Translations under genes and position numbers: made by a program
DNA from: Candidatus Latescibacterota bacterium
GTDB taxonomy: Bacteria > Latescibacterota > UBA2968 > SICM01
DNA: 64,000 nucleotides
Direction: 5' to 3'
Assembly (NCBI GenBank): GCA_965217865.1
Contig: CBDCJO010000002.1
Coordinates: 704,001-768,000, forward strand
Notes under the pieces: generated by a model
Told to the model about the DNA's origin: nothing
The model's database searches: none
Seen by the model: only the letters and a program-made list of their open reading frames with translations
Shown here: piece by piece, positions 27,518 to 43,755 of the stretch
How positions within the stretch are numbered: the stretch's first letter is position 1
Layout: each line of letters begins with the position of its first letter

Positions 27518-28567
27518 TCAAACCGGGAGTCGAAGCCGTTCCCACTTTTTCTGAAATCCAGCCCTTTCGAAAATTTCGGAGTTCACTGCCCCGTCCGGTC
27601 TTTTTCCAGAACAGAGATCGACCATCGCCTGGCTTGCCATCCGTCCTGCATCCCGGAACAGTTCGTGAGTCCAGCCTATGCAATGAGGGGCAAGCAGCAC
27701 GTTCTCAAGCTCTCCGAAGCGATGGGGACTGGTAATCGGCTCCCCGACCAGGCAATCCAGGGCGGCCCCCGCGATCCGTTTGTTCTTCAGGGCGGCGAAA
27801 AGCGCGTCTTCATCCACGATTCCGCCCCTTGCCGTATTGATCAGATAGGCATCCGGTTTCATGAGGGAGATCTCGGAGGGGCCGATGAGATTTGTCGTTT
27901 TTTCATTAAGCGGACAATGGATGGACACGAAATCGGCTGAGGACATCAACTCGTGAAGCTCGACGGACTTCACACCGAGCTGTCGGCCTTTGTCCTCGTC
28001 GAAAAACGGATCATAGGCGATTGGGGTGTCCATCCCGAATCCATGGAGAAGCTCGATCGTGGTCCCGCCGATGCCCCCAAAACCAACCACCCCCAACGTT
28101 CGGTCCCGTAATTCGCAACCCATGTAATCGGATCGAATGTCCCATTGGCCTGCTCGAACCAGCGCGTCCTTTGTGCGCACGTGATGCGTGAGCGCCAGCA
28201 TCCATCCGATGGTCGCTTCCGCCATCGGTCGGTCCACGGCGCCGGAGGTGATCGTCAACAGCACATCGGCCTCGGTACAGGCCTTCACCTCGACCTGGTC
28301 ATAGCCCACACCCATCCGCCCAATGGCCAGCAGATCGTCGCTCTTTGACAGGGAGGCGGTGGTGACCTTCATGCCCCCGATGATCAGGGCGTTGAACGAT
28401 CCAACCTGGTCCGGCCCGAGTTCAGGCCGATTTTCGGCCAGCCGGCCGGTAGAGATTTGGGGGTGTTCCTCCAGCACCTCCAATCCCATCTCTGGAAAAA
28501 TGGATTTCCCATCGGGCTTCAGGATATCGGCCGAATAGGCCACCTTGAAAGGTGGTCGTCCGTTCAT
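27518..28567 (-). CDS. D-isomer-specific 2-hydroxyacid dehydrogenase (SerA-like)
   Basis: GVGYD, GVVGFGGIG, HCPL, INTARG, LAPH. Confidence 0.92.
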   Translation of the reverse strand: MNGRPPFKVAYSADILKPDGKSIFPEMGLEVLEEHPQISTGRLAENRPELGPDQVGSFNALIIGGMKVTTASLSKSDDLLAIGRMGVGYDQVEVKACTEADVLLTITSGAVDRPMAEATIGWMLALTHHVRTKDALVRAGQWDIRSDYMGCELRDRTLGVVGFGGIGGTTIELLHGFGMDTPIAYDPFFDEDKGRQLGVKSVELHELMSSADFVSIHCPLNEKTTNLIGPSEISLMKPDAYLINTARGGIVDEDALFAALKNKRIAGAALDCLVGEPITSPHRFGELENVLLAPHCIGWTHELFRDAGRMASQAMVDLCSGKRPDGAVNSEIFERAGFQKKWERLRLPV

Positions 28568-28700
28568 TCATTCCCTTGAAGAGAGAAACTATCGAATATG
28601 GTGTTGGGAATACCGGGTACGGGGAATGCGATAGGAATTCAATCGGGGAACTTGCCTTGCTTCATCCCACCCCTCAAGTCAGAGAATATGCCGATGGGGA

Positions 28701-29627
28701 TCACGCCTCTCCCACGATCTGTTCAACGATGTTCAGACCGACCCGCTCGCTCCATCTATCGATCAGTCTCCGGAACAACGGTCCCATCGGCACCCCGTCT
28801 CCGATCTCGATGCCGTTGATCTTCGTGACAGGGGCCATGCAGTAGGGCGTTGTGGGAAGAAAGGCCTCATCCGCGTTGATCACATCGTGTACCTGAATAT
28901 CCCGCTCAAGGAACGGAATGTCCATCTCACCGCACAGCTCACGGATGGTCTGCAGGCTTATTCCGGGAAGGATATTCCGCGGCGGCGGGGAGATCACGGT
29001 TCCATCCTTCGCGATCAGGAAGTTCGATCCTGATGTCTCGGCCACGTTCCCGTCAAGATCCAGGACAAGCGGTATCGCACGGGGATCGACCAGTTCCGAC
29101 TCCTTCGAGGCCAGCCACCAGTGCATGCGGCTCCGGCATTTCATCTTCGGATCCGTGCATTGGGGTGGAATGTGCCGGATCGACGGGGTCACCACGTGTA
29201 CCCCCTCGGTGAAGTAGGCGCGCCAGAGCTCGAACGGCAACCGAAAGGTATGCATGCAAAACGTGGGAGTATCCTTCTTCAACCCCCCGGCCCCGCCCGC
29301 ATAAGTGGTGAACAATCCCGGGGTGATGAAATAGACGAGCGCCAGCTCCTCCGCCTCTCCGATCAGTCCTCCGTTATGCTCGATCAGACGTCGGGAGATC
29401 TTCATCGTCTCTTCCACCGATATGACCGGAAGGATCCGGGCATACTTGCACGACCGGTAGAACCTGGCGGCGTGATCCTCCAGTCGATAGGGCTGCTTCC
29501 TAAAGGTCCGTATCAGGTCCGTCACCGTAGCCCCCATGACGATCCCCGCATCGAAAATCTCTAGATGCGCCTCCGAGGCCGGAAGGAGTTCGCCGCTCAG
29601 GTAGACCAGGGGTTCATTGGAGCCCAT
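28701..29627 (-). CDS. Class IV PLP aminotransferase (IlvE/D-amino acid transaminase-like)
   Basis: IRTF, LEDHAARFYRS, KCRSR, ETSGSN, ILPGIS, ADEAF. Confidence 0.9.
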   Translation of the reverse strand: MGSNEPLVYLSGELLPASEAHLEIFDAGIVMGATVTDLIRTFRKQPYRLEDHAARFYRSCKYARILPVISVEETMKISRRLIEHNGGLIGEAEELALVYFITPGLFTTYAGGAGGLKKDTPTFCMHTFRLPFELWRAYFTEGVHVVTPSIRHIPPQCTDPKMKCRSRMHWWLASKESELVDPRAIPLVLDLDGNVAETSGSNFLIAKDGTVISPPPRNILPGISLQTIRELCGEMDIPFLERDIQVHDVINADEAFLPTTPYCMAPVTKINGIEIGDGVPMGPLFRRLIDRWSERVGLNIVEQIVGEA

Positions 29628-30079: not shown

Positions 30080-32494
30080 TTAAAATATCAACGGTGAAAC
30101 GGATTTGTGAATCAGCGCGATGCCGATAGAGATCATGGCCATCAGCGCCATGCCTGATGAGAACCCGACGGAAAGCACCACGGCGTACAACCGCCATTGC
30201 TTCTTGCCATACTTGTTCCAGAAATAGAACCGCGCCAAAAGCGCTCCGATGATCGACGGGAGGACGAAGTGGGGCATCGTCGTCAGGCTCTGAGCGTAAC
30301 CGAACACAAGAAGCGTCGGAAGGCCGAAGATTCCGGAAATGATGAAAATCCCCAGCCCCACCGCCAGTCCCACCAGGCCAACGTCCCACTTGAGCGCCTC
30401 CAACAACAGGGGCTTATCATCCGAGGTCTGCCGCATCCGGCTCTGGAACGTCGGCTCCGTGTCCACCTCCACGAAAATCAGATCCTCGTCGATCCCCTCC
30501 GGAACGCTGATCGCCAGATTGGGAGTCGGCGTTCCAACGATCTCCCCCCGCGACGGCAAAATCAGGCCGGGGGCGACAAGGCCGGCAAGAGCCGTTCCCT
30601 CCGTCTCGGGAGGAGGAGACGCCCGATGCAGCTCGACCTCCTTCAGGAACCTCTCGGCTTCGGATGCGGGCGTCTCACCCTGAGGGCTTTCCCCGAACCG
30701 GGTTTCAAACATCCCCACCTCAGACCATTCGCCGCGATTCCCCGCCTCATCCTTCAGGCATGCCCGCCAGTACCACCGCTCTCCGTCGGGCAGGTTGGCA
30801 GGCCGCCACGAGGCTTTCTCTCCCTCTACCTCCGTCTCCCCCCGCAGGGTGGAGCTAAACCAGAGGCATTGCTGGTAGGCCTGCAGCCGCCACATCGTCT
30901 GCGCATAGGGATAGGTGGCGGATGGGATCGGCGCCATCTGCCAGAGATACTGCCAGTAGAGAAAGCTGGTCAGGAGGACGACCGGCACCATGAAGACCTC
31001 GGCCTTCAGGATACTCGTGAACTTCGTCCCCGTCAGTTCGATCTCCCGGAACTTCTGAGCCTGCCCCCCGTAGTTGTGGAGAGCGAACGGCACGAACCAG
31101 ACCTCCACGCCCCGGTACCCGCTCAGCAAAATGGCCCCCTCCTGGACGAAAGGGATCGACAGAGACTGTCCCACCATCCCGATCAACCGGGCGTTGACGA
31201 ACGACATGAAAGGCGTGAAGATGAACCCGAAGAAGACGAAGTAGAGGAAGGGAAACCCGGGGAGCATCCAACGGGCGATGCCGATCGTCGCGATCGTCAT
31301 CAGGGAGAACAGCCCGAGCAGGAGCGGAATCGAAAAATCCCCCCGCCCTTCCGGAAGGCTTGCCTTCATAACCCCCGTGCCCGAACCCTTCATCTCGCTC
31401 CGCCGTTTTTTCGTCCCCACATAGACCTGGTAAAAACCGACGAAAGCGATGGCGAAGGTGACGCCGATCGAGAAACTCATCCAGAAGTCCACGTTGTTGA
31501 TGAAGTAGGTCTCGATCGACCCCATCCCGAGCTGCCACCTGGGCAGGAGGCCGTTTGCGTGCAGGATCGGGCAGGCCGCGACGTAGGTGAGCGATCCTGC
31601 GACCGCCCCCACGATCCCCCAGAACGGCGCGAGCAGACCCGCGATGATGATCCCGAGGTGGAACGAGAGGCCCAGGGGCGTCGCCGGAAGCACGTAACCC
31701 GAATCGTGGGTGAAGTCCGCGAACGGAATCGGGAAGATCATCACCGGCTCGGCAAGCATCGCCCCGGTGATCGCCGGCACCCCCACATAGAGCGCCCCGA
31801 ACCCCGCCCCGATCATCACCCCCGTGCTGAACATCCGCCACCGCCAGGTCTCCTGGCCCGAGCTGCTGTCGGCGAGGGCGAGCGCCCCCTGCGCGTTGAT
31901 CGGGGCGAACGGAAACGGCAGCCGCTCGTGGTCGGAGGTAAGCCGGAACAGGGAATAGCCGATCGTAAACCAGGACACCCGGCCGATCACCATACCGGCG
32001 ATCAGAAGGCCGATCGGAAGCAGCCAGTCGCTGTGTATAAACGTCCGCTTCACCAGCGCCTCAGAGCCCAGCGGCGGGGCGACCCAATGGGGGATTAAGT
32101 GTGAGATCCCGAACTGCCGCGCGGCCTCCGACTGGACGAGATACTGGTTCCAGAGCAGTCCCTGGAAGGTCCCCGTCTCAGCCGCAATAAGAGACGCCGC
32201 CACATAGAAGAGTACGTAGATCTCCTGCCTGGAGAGCGTCGTGAACGAACGTCTCGCGATCTCGATAAACAGGATGATCGTCACCCATTCCGCCGCCGCC
32301 CCGAGAGACCCCCCGGTCATCAGCGACAGGTACATGTTCCCCGGCACCATCACCACCGAGATAAAAATCACGCCGAGGATCGTCCTGAGCGTGAACCCCT
32401 CCCCGAATGACTTCGGCACCTCCATCAGGGAGCGGTATTCTTCGATCTCCGCATTCGGGTTGCGGACTTTCTTCGGATCTTTTTCAGGCGGCAT
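30080..32494 (-). CDS. OPT-like (oligopeptide transporter superfamily) membrane protein with an inserted FN3-like domain
   Basis: GFTLRTILG, AAEWVTIILF, SRQE and ERLPFPFAP motifs; many TM helices. Confidence 0.7.
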   Translation of the reverse strand: MPPEKDPKKVRNPNAEIEEYRSLMEVPKSFGEGFTLRTILGVIFISVVMVPGNMYLSLMTGGSLGAAAEWVTIILFIEIARRSFTTLSRQEIYVLFYVAASLIAAETGTFQGLLWNQYLVQSEAARQFGISHLIPHWVAPPLGSEALVKRTFIHSDWLLPIGLLIAGMVIGRVSWFTIGYSLFRLTSDHERLPFPFAPINAQGALALADSSSGQETWRWRMFSTGVMIGAGFGALYVGVPAITGAMLAEPVMIFPIPFADFTHDSGYVLPATPLGLSFHLGIIIAGLLAPFWGIVGAVAGSLTYVAACPILHANGLLPRWQLGMGSIETYFINNVDFWMSFSIGVTFAIAFVGFYQVYVGTKKRRSEMKGSGTGVMKASLPEGRGDFSIPLLLGLFSLMTIATIGIARWMLPGFPFLYFVFFGFIFTPFMSFVNARLIGMVGQSLSIPFVQEGAILLSGYRGVEVWFVPFALHNYGGQAQKFREIELTGTKFTSILKAEVFMVPVVLLTSFLYWQYLWQMAPIPSATYPYAQTMWRLQAYQQCLWFSSTLRGETEVEGEKASWRPANLPDGERWYWRACLKDEAGNRGEWSEVGMFETRFGESPQGETPASEAERFLKEVELHRASPPPETEGTALAGLVAPGLILPSRGEIVGTPTPNLAISVPEGIDEDLIFVEVDTEPTFQSRMRQTSDDKPLLLEALKWDVGLVGLAVGLGIFIISGIFGLPTLLVFGYAQSLTTMPHFVLPSIIGALLARFYFWNKYGKKQWRLYAVVLSVGFSSGMALMAMISIGIALIHKSVSPLIF

Positions 32495-32553
32495 CTCGAC
32501 TCTCGCTTGAACGGTTGACGGTTAATGAATCCCGGTCGGAATATTCTGTGATA

Positions 32554-35500
32554 TTAATCTGCTGTTTCCAACGAATCTGCTTTGGCGTATTCGTCCCTGA
32601 CCTGGTCCGACAGGGTCCGCCAGATCAAAAACTGCTTGCGAAGAAGCGTCAAAAACTGCCGGTTCGTCCGGATCCAGGCCTGCAACTCTCCGCTCATCCG
32701 ATCCAACACCGTCTCGATCTCGTATATCCCATAACGACCCGTCGGCATCGCACGCAACACCGTCTCCTGGCTCACACCCATGTCGAACGGCGCAAGCCAC
32801 GTCTGCATTTGGATCGTATAAGACGGACCCTCCGGCGTCTCCTCCTCCCGGAAGCTCACACCCTCCGCGTAAAACTCCCCCAGCGAATAGCGGCTGTAAG
32901 CACGGAAATAGGTCGCCAAAAACGAAAACATACCCCGCACATCTCGACTCGAAACCGTAAACGGAAACTCGAACCGCCAGTGGTCTCCCTCCGGATCCGA
33001 CAACTCCCAACGGCGCATCACATCCGGAACCGCCATCTGTGAGGCCTTCTTCGAGGGATAAAGCGTCGAAAGCATCACCACACTCATCACCAGGCCCATC
33101 GCCATCACCGCAGACAACGACGAGTAGTTCAACGACAGCCCCTGCAACAATCCCGACTCGAAAAGAACCCGACCCACACCCTGTGCCACCAGATACCCCC
33201 CAACCGCTCCGATCACCGCATACACGCACGACTCCGCCATAAACAACATCCCGATGTGGGACGGCGCCAAGCCCACCGCCGAGTAGACCCCGATGTCCCG
33301 AAAACGCTCATACACGGCACCCATCATCGTGTTCAACACGATCAAGGCCGCAATCGCGATCGGAATCAGCAAAATCCCCAAACCCGATACAGACGTCATG
33401 CCGTGAGAGCTGAAGACAAACACCTCCGAAGGGCCGGACTCCTGCGGAATACTGCCGAACACCGTCAACTCCAGGCGCGATACGAAACTCTCAACCACCT
33501 TCCCAACGTCAACGCCTTCATCGAAACCTACGGCGATGGAACGAAGGTCACCCGTCCCTCCCCACCAGTTTCCGGTGCCCCCCATCTCCCGCATCATATG
33601 ATACGGCAGGAACAACACACGGCCCGGGTTCAGGTGCTTGTAGACGTGGATCCCCACCGTCGATCCCGCAGTCCGGCCGGACTGCTGCTGTGCGGCCCGC
33701 TGAGAAGTCGCTCCCTGCTGAAGCTGCTCCGCAAGCACATCCTCTGGAACCACCCCGAAGTCGACCGGCGTCAACGGCGCGCCGTCAAGATCCTCCAATC
33801 CCTTCAACCGCTCCGAATCCATGATCCCCACCACCGCAAGCTCTCGACCGAACACCCGAACCGTCGACCGGCCAACATCCTCCCCCGTGAGACCAAGATC
33901 TCCTGCCATGCTGTCCGGTATCACGCACTCCGCGTTCCCCGCGATCCAGCGACCCGAAGAAAGACAACTGTCGATCCCCGTGATCAATCGCTCCTCCGGA
34001 ACCATACCCACAACAGACGCCGCCTCTACGGACCGACCCCCCCCCTGGATCTTCGTCGCCTTCGTATACCACGCACGGGGAACGACCCGCCCGACGTCCC
34101 GAAACTCATCCGACGTATACTCCAATACCGAGTCGTCAAGCTCCTTCCAGGCCCCGTCCCGGATCATTGCACCCGCCCGGAACGGACCCTCTGTCCAGGG
34201 GATACGCATGTGACGAAGCATGAACTTCAACGACGTGAACGACATCACCGTGAACGTCAACAACAAGACCGTCACCAACGTCAAACTCGTCCGGAGCTTC
34301 CGACGACGCATGTTCGAAATCCCCAGCATAAACGCCACATAAAACGCACTCCCCCGCCCGATGTCCGTCCCGTGAGCCACCGCAGCATCCGTCCGCAACG
34401 CGCGCATCTGTGCGCTGAATCGGGAGGAAATCACCTTCAACACGAGCGTCGCAAGTGCGAGTATCAAAAACGCGACCAGCACAAGAGCCGGATTTGCGAG
34501 AGAAAAAGCAGGATGAACAACGCTCAGGCAAAACCACACAAAAAAGAAAAACCCGAAGAAACCCGCGATCTGCTTCCGGATGTCCGCAAACGCGAACACC
34601 AGACGCTCCGCGAAAAATGAACACGGGATCAGCATCGCCATGAAGAATACCACCCCGTGAATCACGTCGTTCTGTGTCCCCTTCACATCCGGATACGCCC
34701 GCGCCTCAGCCCCCTGAGCCGCTCTGGCGTTCTGGATAAATCCGCTCCACCGGCGTTCCTTCAACGCTTCCTCCGCCTCCCTCAGATGGCCCCCCGCCTT
34801 GTCGTGAAGCGCCGTCAAACGGGTGTTCTCGATCCCGTAGGACAGAAGCTCACGGATCCGGCCGTCGTCGACTCGCCACATGTCACGCGCAGCCTTGTAC
34901 GCCGTCTGCACGAACGCTGACGGAACCTCCGTCAGGAAACCCGCGCCATCACCCCCCTCGGGGTCCGCATTGACCAGGAGAAACCGCACGCCGAACAGAC
35001 CCGTCGAAAGCGTCAGCTTCACACGTTTGCCCGGCTCCGTAAATACCACACCCATCGTCGGCTCCTCCTCACGGTATTCCGGCCTGGCCGTTTCGAAAAA
35101 ATAACCGTAGTGAGCCGGGATCGAATTCCCCGCGTCCATGATCACGATGTCCGAAAGCCGCCCGAGCTGTCGGGGGTCCACCGTCTCGTAGAACGACGTC
35201 GGCACGCACCGGAACAGCACCACAAGCGGCTTCGTAATCGCCCGGCTTATGCGCGCGGAGATCGGATAGATATCCCCACCCCGGTCCGGAGCGGACATGA
35301 TGTCCCCCGACTCCGGGTCGAGCATAAAGGGATGCACCTCCATTTCGTACTCCCGGAACAGCCGGGTCACGCTGAACTCCCCGTTTTCGTCCGCGACCTC
35401 GATATAATCCCCGCGAACCCCTTTGTGGACCTTCGACTCACGGCCTGAACGGAGAACAACCACAGCCCCACCCATCTTGATGTCCGGGATGATGGCATAA

Positions 35501-37083
35501 CGGGAAAACGCCTTCACCCGCCCCTCGATCGCCCATGCCGTATCGGTGAGATCAAGGTTGATGACATCGTCAAGGGCATCCTTGTTGTTCAGGACCTGCG
35601 TCAGCATTCCCCCAAGGAACACGAGCTGCGTCCGGAGGTTGTCGAAACTGACCCCTTCGATCCGGTCCAGCGGGGAGTCCACACCCATCCGGGCGTCGTA
35701 GGAAGTGATCAAAGACAGCGCGGGAGTCCCGCACGCGAGCGCATACTCGCTCTCGATCGGAAGCGGACGGCCGGAAATCACCTTTGCAAAGGCCCTATCG
35801 CTCTGCATGGAGGCGATCACGTTGGCGAACATGTCCTCGGGATCGCGTTCCATCTTCGTGGAAACGGTCTCTGCGATCTTCGAAAGGCGTCTGCCCAGAG
35901 ACACTCCGAAGAAATGCTTTTCCCGGGTGAATCCGGAGGCGCCCATGCCCTCCCTGGAGTCCCATACCGTAAGCCCGTCGTTGCCGCTCGACAGGTCCAG
36001 GCCCAGGAACAGCTTCGGGAACACACGCTCCTTGACGCCTTCTACGAACTCGTCTTTCTTCCGGCTGTGACGCTGCATGTACGCGTCGATCCCACGGAGG
36101 TTCTGGCAGTGACCCGACGTCGCCAGGAACAAGACCGTCCGCCCAGGAGGATGTGTGCGAAGCATCTCCCCCAGCTCAAGCAAACCCGCGATACTGCAAG
36201 CCATCTCCGCCGCAGGCGCAAGGCTGGGCACAACCGACATCCCATCGTAATAGGCCGAGAGCATCACCTCCTGATCCCTCAGATCCGGATCCGATCCCGG
36301 AAACGTCCCCACAACGTTGTAGCCCTCCCGGACCTCCCAGTCCATACGACCCTTCACCTCAACCTCTAAGCCCTCATCCGCAAGGCCCCTCAAACGCTCT
36401 CCCGCCTCGCGGTCCACGTAAAACCGCGGCATCGCAACCGGAACCTCGGCGAACTTGCCCTCCGCCTCGCCCGATGTCGTCCGTTCCGGCGCGATGAACA
36501 CGACCGCACCTGCATCCAGAATCCCAGCGTTAATCCACCGACCCCCGCTGTTGAAATCCATCAAAACCACGTTCCCCGACACATCCTGTCCGTCGAAATC
36601 CGAAAACTCTCCGTCCCCCGCGTAGATCAAGCGGCCCCGGACCCCCGGCGTCGTCGGCGTCCGAACCACGTTCGGCCAGACGCATCGGAGCGGGATCTCC
36701 TCCCCGGACTCCAAAAGCAGAAGGGACGCACCCTTGTCCATCGGCACCGTCACTTGAAACGGCTCCTGGTGAACGTCCTGCATCCCAAGCCGGAGAAACT
36801 CCGCCTCCAGGAAGTCCGCCGACGCCTTGGCACCCGGATATCCCGTCACGCGAGAACCCACCGACGACAGACGGCCGACCGTGGAACGCATCCGATCCAC
36901 CGATACCTCAGGGAGAAAGACACCTTCCGTCGAGATCTCCTTGTCCTGCTTCCCCGACCCGATCGAGGACAATCCCCGAAAAAACTGGACCAGACCGACC
37001 ATCGCGGCCACCAGGACGGCGACAAGGACGAAGGTGAAAAAGACACGAAGCGTTGTGGAAAGAGAGGTCGTCATAGCAAACAT
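32554..37083 (-). CDS. PA + M28-like ectodomain / FtsX-like permease fusion, paralog 2 (1509 aa)
   Basis: SRVTGYPG, PA domain, SAYYD; TM block; NMRRRKLRTSLT; VYERFRDIGVYSAVGLAP FtsX motif. Confidence 0.85.
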   Translation of the reverse strand: MFAMTTSLSTTLRVFFTFVLVAVLVAAMVGLVQFFRGLSSIGSGKQDKEISTEGVFLPEVSVDRMRSTVGRLSSVGSRVTGYPGAKASADFLEAEFLRLGMQDVHQEPFQVTVPMDKGASLLLLESGEEIPLRCVWPNVVRTPTTPGVRGRLIYAGDGEFSDFDGQDVSGNVVLMDFNSGGRWINAGILDAGAVVFIAPERTTSGEAEGKFAEVPVAMPRFYVDREAGERLRGLADEGLEVEVKGRMDWEVREGYNVVGTFPGSDPDLRDQEVMLSAYYDGMSVVPSLAPAAEMACSIAGLLELGEMLRTHPPGRTVLFLATSGHCQNLRGIDAYMQRHSRKKDEFVEGVKERVFPKLFLGLDLSSGNDGLTVWDSREGMGASGFTREKHFFGVSLGRRLSKIAETVSTKMERDPEDMFANVIASMQSDRAFAKVISGRPLPIESEYALACGTPALSLITSYDARMGVDSPLDRIEGVSFDNLRTQLVFLGGMLTQVLNNKDALDDVINLDLTDTAWAIEGRVKAFSRYAIIPDIKMGGAVVVLRSGRESKVHKGVRGDYIEVADENGEFSVTRLFREYEMEVHPFMLDPESGDIMSAPDRGGDIYPISARISRAITKPLVVLFRCVPTSFYETVDPRQLGRLSDIVIMDAGNSIPAHYGYFFETARPEYREEEPTMGVVFTEPGKRVKLTLSTGLFGVRFLLVNADPEGGDGAGFLTEVPSAFVQTAYKAARDMWRVDDGRIRELLSYGIENTRLTALHDKAGGHLREAEEALKERRWSGFIQNARAAQGAEARAYPDVKGTQNDVIHGVVFFMAMLIPCSFFAERLVFAFADIRKQIAGFFGFFFFVWFCLSVVHPAFSLANPALVLVAFLILALATLVLKVISSRFSAQMRALRTDAAVAHGTDIGRGSAFYVAFMLGISNMRRRKLRTSLTLVTVLLLTFTVMSFTSLKFMLRHMRIPWTEGPFRAGAMIRDGAWKELDDSVLEYTSDEFRDVGRVVPRAWYTKATKIQGGGRSVEAASVVGMVPEERLITGIDSCLSSGRWIAGNAECVIPDSMAGDLGLTGEDVGRSTVRVFGRELAVVGIMDSERLKGLEDLDGAPLTPVDFGVVPEDVLAEQLQQGATSQRAAQQQSGRTAGSTVGIHVYKHLNPGRVLFLPYHMMREMGGTGNWWGGTGDLRSIAVGFDEGVDVGKVVESFVSRLELTVFGSIPQESGPSEVFVFSSHGMTSVSGLGILLIPIAIAALIVLNTMMGAVYERFRDIGVYSAVGLAPSHIGMLFMAESCVYAVIGAVGGYLVAQGVGRVLFESGLLQGLSLNYSSLSAVMAMGLVMSVVMLSTLYPSKKASQMAVPDVMRRWELSDPEGDHWRFEFPFTVSSRDVRGMFSFLATYFRAYSRYSLGEFYAEGVSFREEETPEGPSYTIQMQTWLAPFDMGVSQETVLRAMPTGRYGIYEIETVLDRMSGELQAWIRTNRQFLTLLRKQFLIWRTLSDQVRDEYAKADSLETAD

Positions 37084-39618
37084 CGCTTCACAATTTTAAA
37101 GGCCTGGGGAAGGCCTTTAACGAACCTAATCGAATCTTGTATTGAGCTCTGTCGGAATGTTCTGCGCATCTGGACGAATTTACGAATTATTCGGGCACAT
37201 TACCAAATTTTTTTCCTTCAAGCTTCAACAATGCGGTCTCGATCCGAATCCGCCTTTTTTGGCATATTCGTCCCTGACCTGGTCCGACAGGGTCCGCCAG
37301 ATCAAAAACTGCTTGCGAAGAAGCGTCAAAAACTGCCGGTTCGTCCGGATCCAGGCCTGCAACTCTCCGCTCATCCGATCCAACACCGTCTCGATCTCGT
37401 ATATCCCATAACGACCCGTCGGCATCGCACGCAACACCGTCTCCTGGCTCACACCCATGTCGAACGGCGCAAGCCACGTCTGCATTTGGATCGTATAAGA
37501 CGGACCCTCCGGCGTCTCCTCCTCCCGGAAGCTCACACCCTCCGCGTAAAACTCCCCCAGCGAATAGCGGCTGTAAGCACGGAAATAGGTCGCCAAAAAC
37601 GAAAACATACCCCGCACATCTCGACTCGAAACCGTAAACGGAAACTCGAACCGCCAGTGGTCTCCCTCCGGATCCGACAACTCCCAACGGCGCATCACAT
37701 CCGGAACCGCCATCTGTGAGGCCTTCTTCGAGGGATAAAGCGTCGAAAGCATCACCACACTCATCACCAGGCCCATCGCCATCACCGCAGACAACGACGA
37801 GTAGTTCAACGACAGCCCCTGCAACAATCCCGACTCGAAAAGAACCCGACCCACACCCTGTGCCACCAGATACCCCCCAACCGCTCCGATCACCGCATAC
37901 ACGCACGACTCCGCCATAAACAACATCCCGATGTGGGACGGCGCCAAGCCCACCGCCGAGTAGACCCCGATGTCCCGAAAACGCTCATACACGGCACCCA
38001 TCATCGTGTTCAACACGATCAAGGCCGCAATCGCGATCGGAATCAGCAAAATCCCCAAACCCGATACAGACGTCATGCCGTGAGAGCTGAAGACAAACAC
38101 CTCCGAAGGGCCGGACTCCTGCGGAATACTGCCGAACACCGTCAACTCCAGGCGCGATACGAAACTCTCAACCACCTTCCCAACGTCAACGCCTTCATCG
38201 AAACCTACGGCGATGGAACGAAGGTCACCCGTCGTGCCGCCCAACCAGTGGCCCACTCTCCCCATCTCCCGCATCAAATGATACGGCAGGAACAACACAC
38301 GGCCCGGGTTCAGGTGCTTGTAGACGTGGATCCCCACCGTCGATCCCGCAGTCCGGCCGGACTGCTGCTGTGCGGCCCGCTGAGAAGTCGCTCCCTGCTG
38401 AAGCTGCTCCGCAAGCACATCCTCTGGAACCACCCCGAAGTCGACCGGCGTCAACGGCGCGCCGTCAAGATCCTCCAATCCCTTCAACCGCTCCGAATCC
38501 ATGATCCCCACCACCGCAAGCTCTCGACCGAACACCCGAACCGTCGACCGGCCAACATCCTCCCCCGTGAGACCAAGATCTCCTGCCATGCTGTCCGGTA
38601 TCACGCACTCCGCGTTCCCCGCGATCCAGCGACCCGAAGAAAGACAACTGTCGATCCCCGTGATCAATCGCTCCTCCGGAACCATACCCACAACAGACGC
38701 CGCCTCTACGGACCGACCCCCCCCCTGGATCTTCGTCGCCTTCGTATACCACGCACGGGGAACGACCCGCCCGACGTCCCGAAACTCATCCGACGTATAC
38801 TCCAATACCGAGTCGTCAAGCTCCTTCCAGGCCCCGTCCCGGATCATTGCACCCGCCCGGAACGGACCCTCTGTCCAGGGGATACGCATGTGACGAAGCA
38901 TGAACTTCAACGACGTGAACGACATCACCGTGAACGTCAACAACAAGACCGTCACCAACGTCAAACTCGTCCGGAGCTTCCGACGACGCATGTTCGAAAT
39001 CCCCAGCATAAACGCCACATAAAACGCACTCCCCCGCCCAATGTCCGTCCCGTGAGCCACCGCAGCATCCGTCCGCAACGCGCGCATCTGTGCGCTGAAT
39101 CGGGAGGAAATCACCTTCAACACGAGCGTCGCAAGTGCGAGTATCAAAAACGCGACCAGCACAAGAGCCGGATTTGCGAGAGAAAAAGCAGGATGAACAA
39201 CGCTCAGGCAAAACCACACAAAAAAGAAAAACCCGAAGAAACCCGCGATCTGCTTCCGGATGTCCGCAAACGCGAACACCAGACGCTCCGCGAAAAATGA
39301 ACACGGGATCAGCATCGCCATGAAGAATACCACCCCGTGAATCACGTCGTTCTGTGTCCCCTTCACATCCGGATACGCCCGCGCCTCAGCCCCCTGAGCC
39401 GCTCTGGCGTTCTGGATAAATCCGCTCCACCGGCGTTCCTTCAACGCTTCCTCCGCCTCCCTCAGATGGCCCCCCGCCTTGTCGTGAAGCGCCGTCAAAC
39501 GGGTGTTCTCGATCCCGTAGGACAGAAGCTCACGGATCCGGCCGTCGTCGACTCGCCACATGTCACGCGCAGCCTTGTACGCCGTCTGCACGAACGCTGA
39601 CGGAACCTCCGTCAGGAA
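32588..39618. repeat. ~2.35-kb near-identical direct repeat (32588-34938 and 37265-39618)
   Basis: By-eye comparison: identical except one ~45-nt patch and one silent change (34360/39040). Confidence 0.9.
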
Positions 39619-41751
39619 TCCCGCCCCATCACCCCCCTCAGGATCCGCGTTGACCAGGAAAAAGCGCACGCCGAACAGACCCGTCGAAAGCGTCAGCTTC
39701 ACACGCTTGCCCGGCTCCGTAAATACCACACCCATCGTCGGCTCCTCCTCCCGATAATGGGCTCTTGCCGTTTCGAAAAAATATCCATAATGCTGGGGGA
39801 CCGAATTCCCCGCGTCCATAACCACGATGTCCGAAAGCCGCCCAAGCTGTCGGGGGTCCACCGTCTCGTAGAACGACGTCGGAACGCACCGGAACAGCAC
39901 CACAAGCGGCTTCTCAAGCCCCCATTTGGTTTTAACCTCGATCGGGTAGTCCGCTCCCCGGTCCGGGGCGTGGGTGATCTCCCCGGTGACCGGGTTTCGC
40001 AAGAAGGGGTGTATCTCCAGCGGCCAGTACTCCCGGAAAATCCGGGTAACCTTGAAGATCCCGTGTTCGTTCGCCAGCTCGAAGAACTCCCCCCGCACCC
40101 CCTTGGCGGACTTCGACTCCCGGCCCGATCGTACGGCCACGATCGCCCCACCCATTTCGATGTCGGGTGTGATCGCGTACCGGGAGAACCCCTTCACACG
40201 CCCCTCAACCCCCCAGGAATCGTCTTTCATCTCCAGGTTGAGAACGTCGCCGAGCGCATCCGCCTTATTCAGGACCTGTGATACCAACCCCCCGATGAAG
40301 ACCAGCTGCGTCCGGAGGTTGTCGAAATTGACCCCTTCGATCCGGTCCAGCGGAGAATCCACATCCAGACGGGCGTCGTAGGAGGTGATCAAAGACAGCG
40401 CAGGGGTACCGCACGCGAGCGCATACTCGCTCTCGATCGGAAGCGGACGGCCCGGAATCAGCTCCCCCCAGGACTGGTCGCTCTGCTGTGAAGCGATCAC
40501 ATTGGCGAACACGTCCTCCAACTCGCGTCCCATCCCGGCAGCAACCTCCTCCGCCATCGATGCCAAACGGCGTCCCAACGACACACCGAAGAAATTCTTC
40601 GCGCGCGAGAACTGAGTGGCGCCCATCTTCTCCCTGGTATCCCAGGCCGCCAGCCCATCGTTGCCGCTCGACAGGTCCAGACCCAGGAACAGCTTCGGAA
40701 ACACAGGCTCGATTACGCTTTCTAGGAACGGTTCTTTCTTCCGGCTGTGACGCTGCATGTACGCGTCGACCCCACGGAGGTTCTGGCAGTGACCCGACGT
40801 CGCCAGAAACAGAACCGTCCGCGCAGGGGGATGCGCGCGAAGCATCTCCCCCAGCTCAAGCAAACCCGCGATACCGCAAGCCATCTCCGCCGCAGGCGCA
40901 AGGGAGGGCACAACCGACATCCCATCGTAATAGGCCGAGAGCATCACCTCCTGATCCCTCAGATCCGGATCCGATCCCGGTAACCTCCCCACAACGTTGT
41001 AGCCCCTCCGGACCTCCCAGTCCATACGACCCTTCACCTCAACCTCTAAGCCTCCATCCGCAAGGCCCCTCAAACGCTCTCCCGCATCCCGGTCCACGTA
41101 AAACCGCGGCATCGCAACCGGAACCTCGGCGAACTTGCCCTCCGCCTGACCTGTCGTCGTGCTTTCGGGCGCGATGAAAACGACCGCACCGGCCCCCAGA
41201 ATCCCCGCATTAATCCACCGGCCCCCGCTGTTGAAGTCCATCAAAACCACGTTCCCCGAGACATCATGTCCGTCGAAACCCGAAAACTCTCCGTCCCCCA
41301 CGTAGATCAGGCGGCCCCGGACCCCCGGCGTCGTCGGTGTCCGAACCAAATTGGGCCAGACGCACCGGAGCTGGATCTCCTCCCCGGACTCCAAAAGACG
41401 AAGGGACGCACCCTTGTCCACCGGAACCGTCACATCAAACGCCTCCTGGTGAACGTCCTGCATTCCCAGCCGGAGAAACTCCGATTCCAGGAAGTCCGCC
41501 GACGCCTTGGCACCCGGATATCCCGTCACCCGCGAACCGACCGACGACAGACGGGCGACCGTGGAACGCAACCGATCCACCGACACCTCAGGGAGAAAGA
41601 CATCCACCCCGATATGGGCGGCCTTCTTCTCCTCGGACCGATAGGTCCAACTCCTGAAGAAATGGACCAGTCCCACGAGGACGCCGAACAGAACGACCCC
41701 TATGGCGATCGTGGAAAGGATTTTCGGGAAATGTGATTGGGATGTCGACAT
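37225..41751 (-). CDS. PA + M28-like ectodomain / FtsX-like permease fusion, paralog 1 (1508 aa)
   Basis: Same architecture; C-terminal half nearly identical to 32554..37083. Confidence 0.85.
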   Translation of the reverse strand: MSTSQSHFPKILSTIAIGVVLFGVLVGLVHFFRSWTYRSEEKKAAHIGVDVFLPEVSVDRLRSTVARLSSVGSRVTGYPGAKASADFLESEFLRLGMQDVHQEAFDVTVPVDKGASLRLLESGEEIQLRCVWPNLVRTPTTPGVRGRLIYVGDGEFSGFDGHDVSGNVVLMDFNSGGRWINAGILGAGAVVFIAPESTTTGQAEGKFAEVPVAMPRFYVDRDAGERLRGLADGGLEVEVKGRMDWEVRRGYNVVGRLPGSDPDLRDQEVMLSAYYDGMSVVPSLAPAAEMACGIAGLLELGEMLRAHPPARTVLFLATSGHCQNLRGVDAYMQRHSRKKEPFLESVIEPVFPKLFLGLDLSSGNDGLAAWDTREKMGATQFSRAKNFFGVSLGRRLASMAEEVAAGMGRELEDVFANVIASQQSDQSWGELIPGRPLPIESEYALACGTPALSLITSYDARLDVDSPLDRIEGVNFDNLRTQLVFIGGLVSQVLNKADALGDVLNLEMKDDSWGVEGRVKGFSRYAITPDIEMGGAIVAVRSGRESKSAKGVRGEFFELANEHGIFKVTRIFREYWPLEIHPFLRNPVTGEITHAPDRGADYPIEVKTKWGLEKPLVVLFRCVPTSFYETVDPRQLGRLSDIVVMDAGNSVPQHYGYFFETARAHYREEEPTMGVVFTEPGKRVKLTLSTGLFGVRFFLVNADPEGGDGAGFLTEVPSAFVQTAYKAARDMWRVDDGRIRELLSYGIENTRLTALHDKAGGHLREAEEALKERRWSGFIQNARAAQGAEARAYPDVKGTQNDVIHGVVFFMAMLIPCSFFAERLVFAFADIRKQIAGFFGFFFFVWFCLSVVHPAFSLANPALVLVAFLILALATLVLKVISSRFSAQMRALRTDAAVAHGTDIGRGSAFYVAFMLGISNMRRRKLRTSLTLVTVLLLTFTVMSFTSLKFMLRHMRIPWTEGPFRAGAMIRDGAWKELDDSVLEYTSDEFRDVGRVVPRAWYTKATKIQGGGRSVEAASVVGMVPEERLITGIDSCLSSGRWIAGNAECVIPDSMAGDLGLTGEDVGRSTVRVFGRELAVVGIMDSERLKGLEDLDGAPLTPVDFGVVPEDVLAEQLQQGATSQRAAQQQSGRTAGSTVGIHVYKHLNPGRVLFLPYHLMREMGRVGHWLGGTTGDLRSIAVGFDEGVDVGKVVESFVSRLELTVFGSIPQESGPSEVFVFSSHGMTSVSGLGILLIPIAIAALIVLNTMMGAVYERFRDIGVYSAVGLAPSHIGMLFMAESCVYAVIGAVGGYLVAQGVGRVLFESGLLQGLSLNYSSLSAVMAMGLVMSVVMLSTLYPSKKASQMAVPDVMRRWELSDPEGDHWRFEFPFTVSSRDVRGMFSFLATYFRAYSRYSLGEFYAEGVSFREEETPEGPSYTIQMQTWLAPFDMGVSQETVLRAMPTGRYGIYEIETVLDRMSGELQAWIRTNRQFLTLLRKQFLIWRTLSDQVRDEYAKKGGFGSRPHC

Positions 41752-41773: not shown

Positions 41774-41874
41774 CCCCTCCCCCCGACCTCTCCCCTAAAG
41801 GAGAGGGGAGATCATGTGTTTGAATTTCGGTGAAATAAAGGCCATATCCCCCTTCCCTAAAGGGAAGGGGGTTT
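41774..41874. repeat. Empty DUF559-associated palindromic element
   Basis: Matches the left (60304-60368) and right (~60756-60798) flanks of the DUF559 gene, joined together. Confidence 0.7.
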
Positions 41875-41901: not shown

Positions 41902-43755
41902 TTATTTTGCACTTTCCTCCCCTGCCTCCCCTTCCCGCATGGTCAGGAAACGATCCGCCTGAACTGACTCGAACCGTTCCACCAGGCCGCTCGGCCAGCG
42001 AATGAGAAGAGAGTCCACCTCCACGACAGATCCGATACCGAAGTGAAGTCGAAAATCCGTATGCGACATATAGCTGGATCCGCTCCGGACCTCCTTCACC
42101 TGTTTTTGCCCATCCGCCCATAAGGTCACCCGCCCCCCGATGCCGCTCCGATTGGAAAGGCGAGATTCGGATGACGGAGGTCGGATTTCGGACCCACCTC
42201 CACCCCCGACCTCTAACCCTTGACCTCCGACTTCTGACCTCTGACCTCCGACACCTGACCCCTGACCCCTGGCTCCCCCCACAAGCTTCACGGTCAACCA
42301 GTGATTCTGATTCCCCCCTTCGTTCCTCAGGAGTGTCGCCGGGCTGTTGTTGTTGTTGATAAAGATATCCACGTCTCCATCGTTGTCATAGTCCCCGAAC
42401 GTCGCTCCCCGGCTCACGCGAGGCACGGACAGGGCTTTCCCCGACGTCTCGGATACTTCCGTATATTTTCCCTTCCCCGAGTTGCGGAACAGAAGGGAAG
42501 GCTGGGCGTAGGAGCTGCCGAATAAATTTGCGTTGTGCAGAGCGTGGCCGTTGACGATATATACGTCGGGCCAACTGTCGTTGTCGTAATCCAGGAAATT
42601 GACGCCCCAGTGAACGTAAGGATACGTCGGGCGATCCAGCCCGGATGCGCTGGATGCATCCGAGAACATCCCGTTCCCTTCGTTGCGGTAAAGACCCACG
42701 CCTTCCCACTGGAAATGCGTCACGACCAGGTCCTGCCAACCGTCCCCGTCGTAGTCCCCGAAATCCGCCCCCATGCTCGCCATCGGGTAGCCCTCCACAT
42801 TGTAGGCCAGCCCCGCGAGAAGAGCGATGTCCTCGAAAGTCCCGTCTCCCCTGTTTCGATAAAAATAATCAGCCACCGTGTCGTTTGCCACATAGATGTC
42901 CACGTCCCCGTCGTTATCGTAGTCTGTGCAGACCAGTCCCATCCCCCTTCCCAAAGGGCTCAACACCCCCGCCGACTTCGTCACGTCCGTAAATGTCCCA
43001 TCACCGTTGTTGTGATACAGGCGGTCGAAGTCGCCCGGAAATATTCCTGGATGGGGATAGAACTTGGTATCGGTTGGGACGGAAGAGCTGGGGACCCCAT
43101 AGGGCAGGAGGTTATCGTAAGCAGCGAAGACCGAGTAGTCCACGTAGTTTGCGACGTAGAGGTCTAAATTACCGTCATTGTCATAATCCAAAAAGGCGCA
43201 GCCGACGCCCCACGCGAAATCTCCGGCCACACCCGCAAGCCTAGCTACATCCCTGAACGTCCCATCTCCGTTGTTGCGGAACAGGCTGTTGATGCCGTAA
43301 CACGTCACGTAGATGTCATCGTACCCGTCGTTATCGTAGTCCCCAACACAGCACCCCATCCCGTAATCCGTCACCGCCACACCCGCCGATGACGTGACAT
43401 CCGAAAAGGTCCCGTCCCCCTCGTTTCGGTAGAGCCGATTCCGCGGAAGTTTCCCTTCATAGCCGGGCAGCACACCTCCATCCACGGCAAAGATATCCAG
43501 CCAGCCGTCGTTGTCGTAGTCCAGAAACGCACAACCCGAACCCACGGTTTCGACAAAGTAACGCTCCCCGGTACCGCCGTGGATATGGCGAAAGTCAATC
43601 CCGGATGATTGTGTCACGTCCACGAAACGGGGTGGATCAGCGTCGGCCGTGAGGCTCCAGCCGAACAGCAGGAAAACCGACCACGAAAGAGAACGTGAAG
43701 CGTATCTCGTGAAGCGTGAAGCGGGAGAGTCACACCAAAAGATCACCGTTTGCAT
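41902..43755 (-). CDS. CRTAC1-family (FG-GAP + ASPIC/UnbV) secreted protein
   Basis: Repeated DYDNDG, LYRNEGDGTF; SGSSYMS..DFRLHFGIG..IRWPSG. Confidence 0.92.
   Translation of the reverse strand: MQTVIFWCDSPASRFTRYASRSLSWSVFLLFGWSLTADADPPRFVDVTQSSGIDFRHIHGGTGERYFVETVGSGCAFLDYDNDGWLDIFAVDGGVLPGYEGKLPRNRLYRNEGDGTFSDVTSSAGVAVTDYGMGCCVGDYDNDGYDDIYVTCYGINSLFRNNGDGTFRDVARLAGVAGDFAWGVGCAFLDYDNDGNLDLYVANYVDYSVFAAYDNLLPYGVPSSSVPTDTKFYPHPGIFPGDFDRLYHNNGDGTFTDVTKSAGVLSPLGRGMGLVCTDYDNDGDVDIYVANDTVADYFYRNRGDGTFEDIALLAGLAYNVEGYPMASMGADFGDYDGDGWQDLVVTHFQWEGVGLYRNEGNGMFSDASSASGLDRPTYPYVHWGVNFLDYDNDSWPDVYIVNGHALHNANLFGSSYAQPSLLFRNSGKGKYTEVSETSGKALSVPRVSRGATFGDYDNDGDVDIFINNNNSPATLLRNEGGNQNHWLTVKLVGGARGQGSGVGGQRSEVGGQGLEVGGGGGSEIRPPSSESRLSNRSGIGGRVTLWADGQKQVKEVRSGSSYMSHTDFRLHFGIGSVVEVDSLLIRWPSGLVERFESVQADRFLTMREGEAGEESAK

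What the first reader, a model, noticed from the sequence alone, without database searches (positions are those of the whole stretch)
30080..41751. Candidate undescribed inner-membrane machine: two pseudo-M28/FtsX giants plus an OPT-like transporter, with no ATPase
Seen: two ~1,500-aa proteins (N-terminal TM, PA domain, M28-fold ectodomain, TM block, MacB/FtsX-type permease) directly upstream of an OPT-like transporter; no ABC ATPase gene anywhere in the locus. Known: M28 peptidases use HxD, GAxDNxSG and EE zinc/catalytic motifs; nicastrin is an inactive M28-fold substrate receptor; FtsX/MacB permeases normally need an ATPase. Here the equivalent positions read AYYD, AAEMACS/G and SGH in both copies. 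Inference: a non-catalytic or rewired receptor domain captures periplasmic (glyco)peptides and hands them to the OPT-like carrier, possibly as a heterodimer.
Basis: partly seen in the sequence, partly recalled or inferred. Interest (0 to 1): 0.8.

Follow-up and report, generated by a model that had tools for sequence, protein, structure and literature searches.

The report
Shared ATP motor, many swappable carriers
Two recently duplicated giant membrane proteins with a peptidase-like head that lacks the usual zinc residues sit beside a transporter predicted to share the fold of plant iron carriers; all three belong to a widely conserved, apparently undescribed machine whose ATP-motor genes lie elsewhere in this genome and which likely powers nutrient uptake through many interchangeable carriers.

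Summary
The three genes are real: two ~1,500-aa PA/M28-fold + MacB/FtsX giants and an 804-aa permease whose predicted fold matches only the OPT-family carrier YS1. The M28 dinuclear zinc site is broken in all homologues examined. 'No ATPase' holds only locally. In relatives the operon reads DUF6785, giant, OPT, unknown protein, PqqD, small FtsX subunit, LolD-type ATPase. This genome (Latescibacterota-like) encodes all these parts elsewhere, and the five parts surveyed together with the giant occur in the same 44 of 52 good genomes of the phylum. The two giants are 88% identical recent mosaic duplicates, not a likely heterodimer; the probable partner is the single-copy small FtsX. DUF6785 is a full-length paralogue of the OPT protein and is strongly expanded: 16 loci here, 18-19 in genomes with one giant, one OPT and one small FtsX. 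Best model (about 0.5): a type VII ABC motor shared, ECF-style, by many swappable OPT-fold carriers for nutrient import. Physical coupling, direction and substrate are untested. My paper searches found no description, but this scan noted the system in at least 8 earlier findings on other genomes.

The parts
37225..41751 (-). Giant A, 1508 aa: N-terminal TM, PA + pseudo-M28 ectodomain, beta-sandwiches and helices, 3-TM block, MacB/FtsX TMD with periplasmic core domain, conserved ~150-aa C-terminal domain (predicted cytoplasmic)
32554..37083 (-). Giant B, 1509 aa, same architecture, 88% identical to A, ~96% identical in DNA to a frameshifted third copy at G000:C2:2299030-2303538
30080..32494 (-). 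O, 804 aa permease predicted to have the OPT/YS1 (elevator-carrier) fold; full-length homologue of DUF6785+DUF6784
40345..40932 (-). Pseudo-active site of A (residues 274-469): Y274 for the first His ligand, D276, E289 for the bridging Asp, H321 at the catalytic Glu, C322 for the second Glu ligand, D359, D465 for the last His; D276, H321, D359, D459, R461, D465, P467, D469 invariant in 45 of 45 bacterial giants
40447..40656 (-). Variable ectodomain patch 1 of A (residues 366-435): 28 of 70 aligned residues differ from B
39892..40281 (-). Variable ectodomain patch 2 of A (residues 491-620, beta-sandwich): 50 of 129 residues differ from B; part of it is closer to a more distant copy (mosaic)
37261..39651 (-). 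C-terminal half of A, near-identical in DNA to B (residues 701-1497: no amino-acid difference outside one loop)
32584..34971 (-). C-terminal half of B, the partner of the near-identical block
38212..38286 (-). Variable loop in the MacB periplasmic core domain of A (residues 1156-1180): 5 residue differences and one indel inside an otherwise identical block
30410..30847 (-). Ig/Fn3-like beta-sandwich inserted in O (residues ~550-695); absent from the ~650-aa Armatimonadota and archaeal forms
   Evidence: Z about 5, weak

Best explanation
These genes encode the giant and OPT-fold subunits of a conserved multi-gene membrane machine that likely imports nutrients, with one shared type VII ABC motor predicted to serve many interchangeable OPT-fold carriers. 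Shown: the gene set, its co-occurrence, the copy numbers, the predicted folds and the broken zinc site. Inferred: (1) the giant's FtsX domain pairs with the single-copy 232-aa small FtsX subunit and two LolD-type ATPases, in the way LolC/LolE/LolD2 do; (2) O is the fixed carrier subunit and pairs with one of many DUF6785 paralogues, a heterodimeric version of the YS1 homodimer, with DUF6785 setting substrate range; (3) ATP binding is transmitted through the FtsX stalk to the giant's outer domains and to the carrier, gating or resetting its elevator movement; (4) the pseudo-M28 pocket binds a ligand or partner without cleaving it; (5) PqqD and the unknown ~330-aa protein are cytoplasmic adaptors. 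The tandem A/B pair is a recent duplication with shuffled outer patches, that is, two variants of the same subunit.
For: Operon: DUF6785, TPR protein, giant, O, unknown, PqqD, small FtsX, ATPase in L115-L117; the six-gene core in L118 and L119 (these five loci were picked because earlier coordinates showed the parts together). In 20 Armatimonadota loci picked on the giant alone, O lies within 3 kb in 15 and small FtsX + ATPase in 9. Survey of 121 genomes of the phylum: O 107, DUF6785 107, small FtsX 101 and always one copy, ATPase clade 102, unknown protein 102; each in 44 of 52 good-quality genomes and in 0 of 13 of family f10, where the giant gives only weak hits (best E 1e-10). Armatimonadota: small FtsX in 36 of 38 giant-positive and 0 of 13 giant-negative genomes. 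Small FtsX is next to the ATPase in 28 of 30 loci. G000's two ATPases fall in the clade of operon-linked ATPases (SH-aLRT 99, quick tree) and show Walker A, signature, Walker B and H-loop motifs (read from the sequences). The only BLAST relatives of the small FtsX among G000 ORFs at E 1e-4 are three intact giants. O and DUF6785 profiles align over 577 columns, probability 98.1%. Stoichiometry: G137 and G151 have one giant, one O, one small FtsX and 18 and 19 DUF6785 loci; G000 has 16 DUF6785 loci, median 55% identity among the 14 longest ORFs, 5 giants and 2 O. Of 14 stand-alone DUF6785 genes in G000, 6 have a glycoside-hydrolase, BNR or sulfatase neighbour, against 2 of 17 random anchors (Fisher p 0.06). 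YS1 is a dimeric elevator importer (PMC9691689, passages).
Against: No experiment ties any of these proteins together; co-occurrence within one phylum rests largely on one loss (family f10). The catabolic-neighbour enrichment is weak (p 0.06). Known type VII ABC motors do not move substrate across their own membrane but act on the periplasmic side (PMC8277102, passages), and YS1 is proton-driven, so ATP-driven import through an OPT fold has no precedent that I found. The identity of O to YS1 is only 10-13%, so fold does not give direction or substrate. The single archaeal locus read (L069) has giant and O transcribed divergently and no ATPase nearby. In Latescibacterota giants and O are themselves multi-copy, so the motor/carrier division is less clean than in G137. 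An earlier unchecked scan note links the system to an envelope-sugar pathway in sulfate reducers, which could mean another role.
Confidence: 0.5

Rival explanations
1. The ABC motor plus giant is a dedicated assembly, quality-control or activation device for the OPT-fold carriers, which then work as ordinary proton-coupled importers. The pseudo-M28 domain would act like nicalin in multipass membrane-protein biogenesis.
For: One giant serves 18-19 different DUF6785 proteins in G137 and G151, which suits a generic role. Nicalin is the third and fourth best PDB sequence hit to the ectodomain profile (E 2.6e-10 and 1.1e-9) and shares the four-residue insertion after the HxD motif. O keeps conserved charged residues that could couple ions (E78, E91, R150, E190, D260, R436). 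Type VII motors act by mechanotransmission rather than translocation.
Against: O itself is a fixed, usually adjacent, low-copy part of the module, which a general biogenesis factor would not need. Active bacterial aminopeptidases score higher than nicalin. The giants diversify in outer patches, which suits ligand contact. Nicalin's biogenesis role is recalled, not checked here.
Confidence: 0.2
2. The machine is an envelope or export system: the type VII motor extracts or expels a lipid-linked or polymeric product, with the OPT-fold proteins acting as exporters or flippases.
For: The type VII members named in the review passages read export, extract or activate. The ATPase is very conserved (70-89% identity across the phylum) and PAP2-like and TPR genes join some operons. 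In Fervidibacter sacchari a protein annotated as OPT-superfamily is about equally abundant on five polysaccharides (supplement row; its identity with O is not shown).
Against: DUF6785 expansion to dozens of first-look candidates per genome and its place beside hydrolases, sulfatases, oxidoreductases and TonB-dependent receptors look like uptake loci. The only solved structure with this fold that the search found is an importer.
Confidence: 0.15
3. The ectodomain is a rewired but active hydrolase (single metal or metal-free) that trims a periplasmic substrate before uptake, switched by the ABC motor as FtsEX switches EnvC/amidases.
For: D276, H321, D359, D459, R461, D465, D469 are invariant in 45 of 45 bacterial giants and E/D289 in 45 of 45; 120 archaeal-type homologues keep the first His (108), D276 (120), an acidic residue at 290 (120), H321 (111) and D359 (104), enough for one metal. 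An E151H aminopeptidase has been called 'functional' (title of a reference in PMC4320195).
Against: In bacteria three of five metal ligands and the general base are replaced; the second Glu ligand position is never acidic in either group; bacterial and archaeal pockets conserve different residues.
Confidence: 0.1
4. One reading: an ATP-independent complex in which giants A and B form a heterodimeric receptor that passes (glyco)peptides to the OPT carrier.
For: No ATPase gene flanks the locus; A, B and O are adjacent and co-oriented; the tandem is real.
Against: A dedicated ATPase and small FtsX exist in this genome and in nearly all giant-positive genomes. A and B have identical membrane domains. 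No other fetched locus has two adjacent giants and many genomes gave only one strong giant match.
Confidence: 0.05

Closest known systems
Type VII ABC systems (LolCDE, MacB, FtsEX, YtrEF; Pfam PF02687/PF12704)
   Same: Four-TM FtsX domain with periplasmic core domain; LolD/MacB-type ATPase; two different FtsX-domain genes, as in LolC/LolE; best PDB sequence hits of the giant's C-terminal part are MacB, YtrF, LolC, LolF.
   Different: Giant carries an 800-aa PA/pseudo-M28 ectodomain, three extra TMs and a conserved C-terminal domain; the second TMD has almost no periplasmic domain; OPT-fold partners, PqqD and an unknown protein are fixed companions; all NCBIfam scores are far below family cut-offs.
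OPT/YSL carriers (barley YS1, PDB 7WSR/7WST)
   Same: Predicted fold of O superposes over 549 residues (Z 18.9, rmsd 4.7); DUF6785 is homologous to O.
   Different: 10-13% identity, no Pfam OPT hit; Ig-like insert; two paralogous families rather than one homodimer; genetically tied to an ABC motor, whereas YS1 is a stand-alone proton symporter.
ECF transporters with shared energizing module
   Same: Logic: one ATP-driven module, many scattered membrane-embedded substrate subunits (abstract starts of PMC4820897 and PMC12075633; the sharing by group II systems is recalled).
   Different: No homology: motor is MacB/FtsX-type, not EcfAA'T; the variable subunit is a ~650-aa OPT-fold protein, not a ~200-aa S-component.
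M28 aminopeptidases with PA domain (Aneurinibacillus AM-1 2EK8, B. subtilis YwaD) and pseudo-peptidases (nicalin, transferrin receptor, nicastrin)
   Same: PA inserted in an M28 fold (Foldseek E 5e-28; VIA Z 28.8); loss of metal ligands as in the pseudo-peptidases; insertion after HxD shared with nicalin.

Membership tests
Type VII ABC (MacB/FtsX/LolCDE) | Four-TM FtsX domain with a large periplasmic core domain between TM1 and TM2 | tested here: met
   Pfam FtsX E 1e-11 above cut-off, MacB_PCD E 6e-5 below cut-off; hydropathy 930-948, 1229-1247, 1274-1292, 1320-1338; PDB hits MacB/LolC/YtrF. This part was not modelled in 3D.
Type VII ABC (MacB/FtsX/LolCDE) | Cognate LolD/MacB-type ATPase with intact motifs | tested here: met
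   Operon-linked in 9 of 20 Armatimonadota loci and L115-L119; G000 orthologues at C2:1268377 and C2:823107 in the same clade; best NCBIfam hits LolD, MacB.
Type VII ABC (MacB/FtsX/LolCDE) | Dimeric TMD (homo- or heterodimer) bound to two NBDs | tested here: inconclusive
   A second, single-copy FtsX gene co-occurs and sits beside the ATPase; binding itself was not tested.
Type VII ABC (MacB/FtsX/LolCDE) | Mechanotransmission without transport across its own membrane | not testable with these tools
   Defined in PMC8277102 passages; needs biochemistry.
OPT/YSL family | YS core + scaffold fold | tested here: met
   Model pLDDT 91; only 2 PDB matches at E<=0.001, both YS1; Z 18.9.
OPT/YSL family | Sequence membership of Pfam OPT (PF03169) | tested here: not met
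   No OPT hit for O, the second G000 copy or five further homologues; profile search of PDB sequences also misses YS1.
OPT/YSL family | Proton-coupling aspartates (YS1 D446, D490, D494) and proton symport | tested here: inconclusive
   O has conserved acidic residues but no residue-level alignment to YS1 was available.
M28 metallo-aminopeptidases | M28 alpha/beta fold with PA insert | tested here: met
M28 metallo-aminopeptidases | Five metal ligands (His, Asp, Glu, Asp/Glu, His) of the two-zinc site | tested here: not met
   Y274, E289, C322, D359, D465; position 274 is His in 1 of 45 bacterial giants, position 322 is never acidic. Ligand numbering is recalled from the Aeromonas enzyme.
M28 metallo-aminopeptidases | Catalytic Glu general base | tested here: not met
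   His in 45 of 45 bacterial and 111 of 120 archaeal-type giants, aligned with the first E of EE in 2EK8 and 6HC6.
ECF transporters | EcfA/A'/T module and S-component fold | tested here: not met
   ATPase scores far higher with LolD/MacB than ECF models; membrane parts are FtsX and OPT folds.
ECF transporters | One motor shared by many scattered substrate subunits (works-like test) | tested here: inconclusive
   Copy numbers fit; sharing itself not shown.
Nicastrin/nicalin pseudo-peptidases | Closer kinship to nicalin/nicastrin than to active M28 enzymes | tested here: inconclusive
   Nicalin E 2.6e-10 behind two active enzymes, shared insertion; no tree built; nicastrin not among listed hits.

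The most novel reading that the evidence does not exclude
A new class of transporter: a MacB/Lol-type ABC motor with a pseudo-peptidase head physically drives elevator carriers of the OPT fold, built as heterodimers of one fixed subunit (O) and one of up to dozens of swappable DUF6785 subunits. It would be the main inner-membrane uptake route behind the carbohydrate- and sulfate-ester-degrading gene clusters of Latescibacterota and Armatimonadota, with relatives in Thermoproteota archaea, and the first case of a secondary-carrier fold converted to ATP-driven, ECF-like modular use.
Probability: 0.3. Interest if true: 0.9.

Novelty: new variant of a known kind. Interest (0 to 1): 0.7.

Why it matters
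It gives a testable function to one of the most expanded unknown membrane families of these phyla (DUF6785: 16 loci here, 18-19 in two 2.2-2.6 Mb genomes, up to 68 first-look candidates in others). If the coupling is real, it joins two transporter superfamilies that are treated as mechanistically separate (type VII ABC mechanotransducers and proton-driven OPT elevators) and extends the shared-motor logic of ECF systems to large carriers. The giant also occurs in Bathyarchaeia, Thermoprotei and Ignisphaera, so the system spans two domains, and its pseudo-M28 head bears on where eukaryotic pseudo-peptidases such as nicalin came from. Automatic annotation calls these proteins 'M28 family peptidase' or 'FtsX-like permease', which misleads metabolic reconstructions.

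Tried and rejected
Complex prediction of O with two membrane pieces of the giant (Armatimonadota locus L049; giant residues 822-905 and 1229-1500, O residues 16-656): score 0.00, verdict 'no answer'; no evidence either way, and the giant was cut and lacked its TM1 and outer domains. Search for long fusions containing O (1149-3280 aa): none among 7993 candidates scored; weak evidence. Long overlapping ORFs in L042, L043, L127 that looked like fusions are overlapping or extended frames, not shown fusions. O in plasmids: no match. ESM Atlas: no usable hit for the giant's C-terminal domain; only unnamed clusters for the unknown ~330-aa protein; O got no answer. PDB sequence-profile searches with O and DUF6785: nothing significant. 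Assembly-artefact explanation of the tandem: rejected. A+B heterodimer: rejected as best reading. Promoter/terminator scan: nothing beyond chance that bears on the operon. Linking the Fervidibacter expression rows to these exact proteins: not achieved. Literature: no paper holds DUF6785/DUF6784/DUF6754/PF20581/PF20580; none with 4 of nicalin, nicastrin, bacterial homolog, archaea, M28; none with 3 of PqqD, oligopeptide transporter, FtsX, RiPP recognition element; listings showed no description of the system by title or abstract start; two archaeal membrane-protein surveys lack the terms. Subscription papers, bioRxiv supplements and TCDB were not searchable. Sequencing-run shares under 0.2 were not used as habitat evidence. 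The careful ATPase tree did not finish; only the quick tree is cited. Three of 20 random control anchors were dropped before scanning because they were DUF6785 or lay in DUF6785 clusters; 38 of 56 DUF6785 neighbours were scanned, those left out looking like housekeeping genes or being skipped for brevity.
Full report
What is in the window. Three co-oriented minus-strand ORFs fill 30080-41751: giant A (1508 aa), giant B (1509 aa) and O (804 aa). Both giants hit Pfam Peptidase_M28 (residues ~252-343) and FtsX (~1234-1350) above cut-off and MacB_PCD below it; O hits only a weak Ig domain. A hydropathy scan of A gives segments at 11-29, 803-881 (three), 930-948 and 1229-1338 (three). From these I infer an 800-residue outer domain, a MacB-type core domain outside, and a ~150-residue C-terminal domain inside. 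Upstream lie a TonB-dependent receptor, a PorV-like protein, TPR and two ASPIC/UnbV genes; downstream a class IV aminotransferase, a 2-hydroxyacid dehydrogenase and a weak glycoside-hydrolase-like gene. None of the flanking genes scanned is an ABC ATPase. The closest named homologues of O come from Latescibacterota.

The two giants are recent mosaic duplicates. They are 88% identical. Residues 701-1497 differ only in one loop of the periplasmic core domain (5 substitutions and an indel), while two ectodomain patches differ at 28 of 70 and 50 of 129 residues. The genome holds five giants and two O genes. B is ~96% identical in DNA to a frameshifted copy 1.56 Mb away, and part of A's second patch is closer to a fourth copy. 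The tandem is real: in runs of two separate studies, overlapping contigs tile A's end, the spacer and B's start (X2 records 5-8, X8 records 17, 19, 22), though none spans it alone. No other locus I fetched has two giants side by side (L030 has two, each behind its own DUF6785), and many Armatimonadota genomes gave a single strong giant match. A specialised A+B heterodimer is therefore unlikely.

The ectodomain is a pseudo-M28 domain. The model of A residues 52-800 (pLDDT 88, pTM 0.90) matches PA-containing M28 aminopeptidases first (2EK8: Foldseek E 5e-28, VIA Z 28.8). In the profile alignment with 2EK8 and 6HC6, the first His ligand is Y274, the bridging Asp is E289 in a motif one residue shorter, the catalytic Glu is H321, the second Glu is C322 and the last His is D465; D359 is kept. 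PDB chain 2ANP, which has His at the same column, is recalled to be the E151H mutant (a paper with that title is cited in PMC4320195; passages). In 45 bacterial giants D276, H321, D359, D459, R461, D465, P467 and D469 are invariant, and position 274 is His in only one. In 120 homologues of an archaeal-type giant the first His (108), D276 (120), H321 (111) and D359 (104) remain, but position 322 is Trp/Tyr/Asn. So the two-zinc site is absent in all sequences examined, yet the pocket is under strong constraint. Nicalin is the third-best sequence hit and shares an insertion after HxD; nicastrin was not among the listed hits.

O has the OPT fold and a paralogue. Its model (pLDDT 91, pTM 0.89) has two PDB matches at E<=0.001, both barley YS1 (Z 18.9, 549 residues, 13% identity), with an Ig-like insert at 550-695. 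It does not hit Pfam OPT. The O profile aligns with the DUF6785+DUF6784 profile over 577 columns at 98.1% probability. YS1 is a homodimeric, proton-coupled elevator importer (PMC9691689, passages).

The ATPase exists. Other giants in this genome and its relatives sit behind DUF6785. In 20 Armatimonadota loci chosen on the giant alone, O lies within 3 kb in 15, and in 9 the locus also holds a ~210-250-aa FtsX-domain protein and a LolD-type ATPase, mostly with PqqD and an unknown ~330-aa protein. Five Latescibacterota loci, picked because the parts looked adjacent, show the same order, three of them with DUF6785 in front. The 20 Latescibacterota loci were partly chosen for giant-O adjacency, so their 15 of 20 is not an unbiased count. 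G000 has the small FtsX + ATPase pair at C2:1267639-1269105, a second ATPase of the same clade at C2:823107-823856 (77 kb from the locus) and the unknown protein + PqqD on C1 near 227.5-228.9 kb. Across 121 genomes of the phylum, O is found in 107, DUF6785 in 107, the small FtsX in 101 (one copy each), the ATPase clade in 102 (1-3 copies) and the unknown protein in 102; each in 44 of 52 good-quality genomes and none in the 13 genomes of family f10, where the giant gives only weak hits. In 51 Armatimonadota genomes the small FtsX is in 36 of 38 giant-positive and 0 of 13 giant-negative genomes. Kin are not independent, so these tallies show a few joint losses, not a hundred tests. The small FtsX neighbours the ATPase in 28 of 30 loci; the two misses are near contig ends. 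Its only BLAST relatives among G000 ORFs are three intact giants.

Copy numbers suggest a shared motor. The small FtsX and the unknown protein are single-copy, whereas DUF6785 has 16 loci in G000, 8 in G143 and G156, 2 in G166, and 18 and 19 in G137 and G151 (counted from the matches), which have one giant and one O each. Stand-alone DUF6785 genes of G000 lie beside GH106, GH127-like, GHL6, BNR, sulfatase, PhyH and epimerase genes; in relatives beside GHL10, GH42-like, Gfo/Idh/MocA and TonB-receptor genes. With a fixed definition (glycoside hydrolase, BNR or sulfatase within 4 kb on the same strand) this is 6 of 14 against 2 of 17 random anchors, p 0.06: suggestive only.

Mechanism. Most likely (0.5) the giant and the small FtsX form a LolC/LolE-like heterodimer with two ATPases, and this motor serves carriers made of fixed O plus a swappable DUF6785, importing breakdown products released by neighbouring enzymes. 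The pairing, the direction and the substrate are inferred. Type VII motors are described as acting on the periplasmic side rather than translocating (PMC8277102, passages), which makes the addition of a separate carrier logical but also keeps open that the motor only assembles or activates proton-driven carriers (0.2), that the system exports or remodels the envelope (0.15), or that the head is a rewired hydrolase (0.1).

Range and expression. Homologues of an archaeal-type giant carry names from Bathyarchaeia, Thermoprotei, Ignisphaera and Baldrarchaeia; the unknown protein has Atlas clusters in Armatimonadota and Thermodesulfobacteriota. In Fervidibacter sacchari (PMC11535203; passages and supplement rows) a protein annotated as OPT-superfamily, and an FtsX permease and a PqqD with close accession numbers, are expressed on all eight substrates tested; I could not show that they are these proteins, and the paper reads the OPT protein only as a sign of peptide use.

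Prior description. Ten paper searches gave no description of the system; DUF6785 appears in no searchable paper. Subscription journals, bioRxiv supplements and transporter databases were out of reach. This scan has noted the same system in eight earlier findings on other genomes, which are unchecked AI notes and not independent support. I had reached the ATPase and small-FtsX result before reading them; a look-up for the shared-motor idea returned none.

Verdict. Observation largely right, headline ('no ATPase', heterodimer) wrong. The motor meets the sequence criteria of type VII ABC systems, so I file it as a new variant of a known kind; the OPT-fold partners and the one-motor-many-carriers pattern have no precedent that I found. 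Interest 0.7; if physical ATP-driven coupling is shown (probability 0.3), 0.9.

Noticed in passing
window 41902-55418 (-): TonB-dependent receptor, an 851-aa protein with a weak T9SS-like C-terminal match, a PorV/PorQ-family protein, a TPR/rotamase protein and two ASPIC/UnbV proteins lie upstream on the same strand; similar receptor clusters sit near giants or DUF6785 in L037, L129, L131.
   Followed up: partly
window 26155-29627 (-): Class IV aminotransferase, 2-hydroxyacid dehydrogenase and a weak GH114/GHL15-like gene follow O after a 452-nt gap; not seen as conserved neighbours in other loci.
   Followed up: partly
L003 8031-12539 (G000:C2:2299030-2303538): Third close giant copy broken into three frames, with no DUF6785 or O beside it; pseudogene or assembly indels. 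Three DUF6785 copies in G000 are split likewise.
   Followed up: partly
window 38188-38277: Contigs from other runs carry different letters and a 3-base deletion in the variable core-domain loop; part matches the B-type allele, so it may be paralogue cross-mapping or strain variation.
   Followed up: no
L064 5499-7557: In the genome whose O protein is recorded for Chthonomonas calidirosea, the last ~100 residues of O match in a different frame: frameshift or sequencing error.
   Followed up: no
L069 124-6908: Archaeal-type locus with giant and O transcribed divergently, beside sugar-isomerase-like and GH66/DUF6259-like genes; its pseudo-site keeps H-x-D and G-A-D-E.
   Followed up: partly
L039, L041, L044, L045: NusG-domain-II and PF07456 (heptaprenyl synthase component I-like) genes sit upstream and a PAP2-like gene downstream of the module in family f3.
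   Followed up: no
L057, L059, L066: Prepilin-type N-methylation proteins lie next to the module in several Armatimonadota loci; in L060, L064, L065 a small protein of the same BLAST cluster sits between O and the unknown protein.
   Followed up: no
L049, L051, L053: A bacterial microcompartment-like gene cluster (recognised from sequence, not scanned) is transcribed divergently from giant + O.
   Followed up: no
L038 11879-15106: An O homologue of 1075 aa carries PDZ domains in place of the Ig-like insert.
   Followed up: no
L076 (G000:C2:1508000-1530000): Three DUF6785 genes alternate with ~740-aa proteins that have no Pfam hit (one also scanned against NCBIfam, no hit); candidate unknown catabolic enzymes.
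   Followed up: partly
L147 (G000:C2:608465-624135): CRISPR genes of type III-A (Csm1/Csm2) and I-G-like (GSU0053, Cas3) seen in a random control region.
   Followed up: no
window 41789-41871: Two strong hairpins in the 150-nt gap between the ASPIC gene and giant A, with T-tails on the + strand.
   Followed up: no
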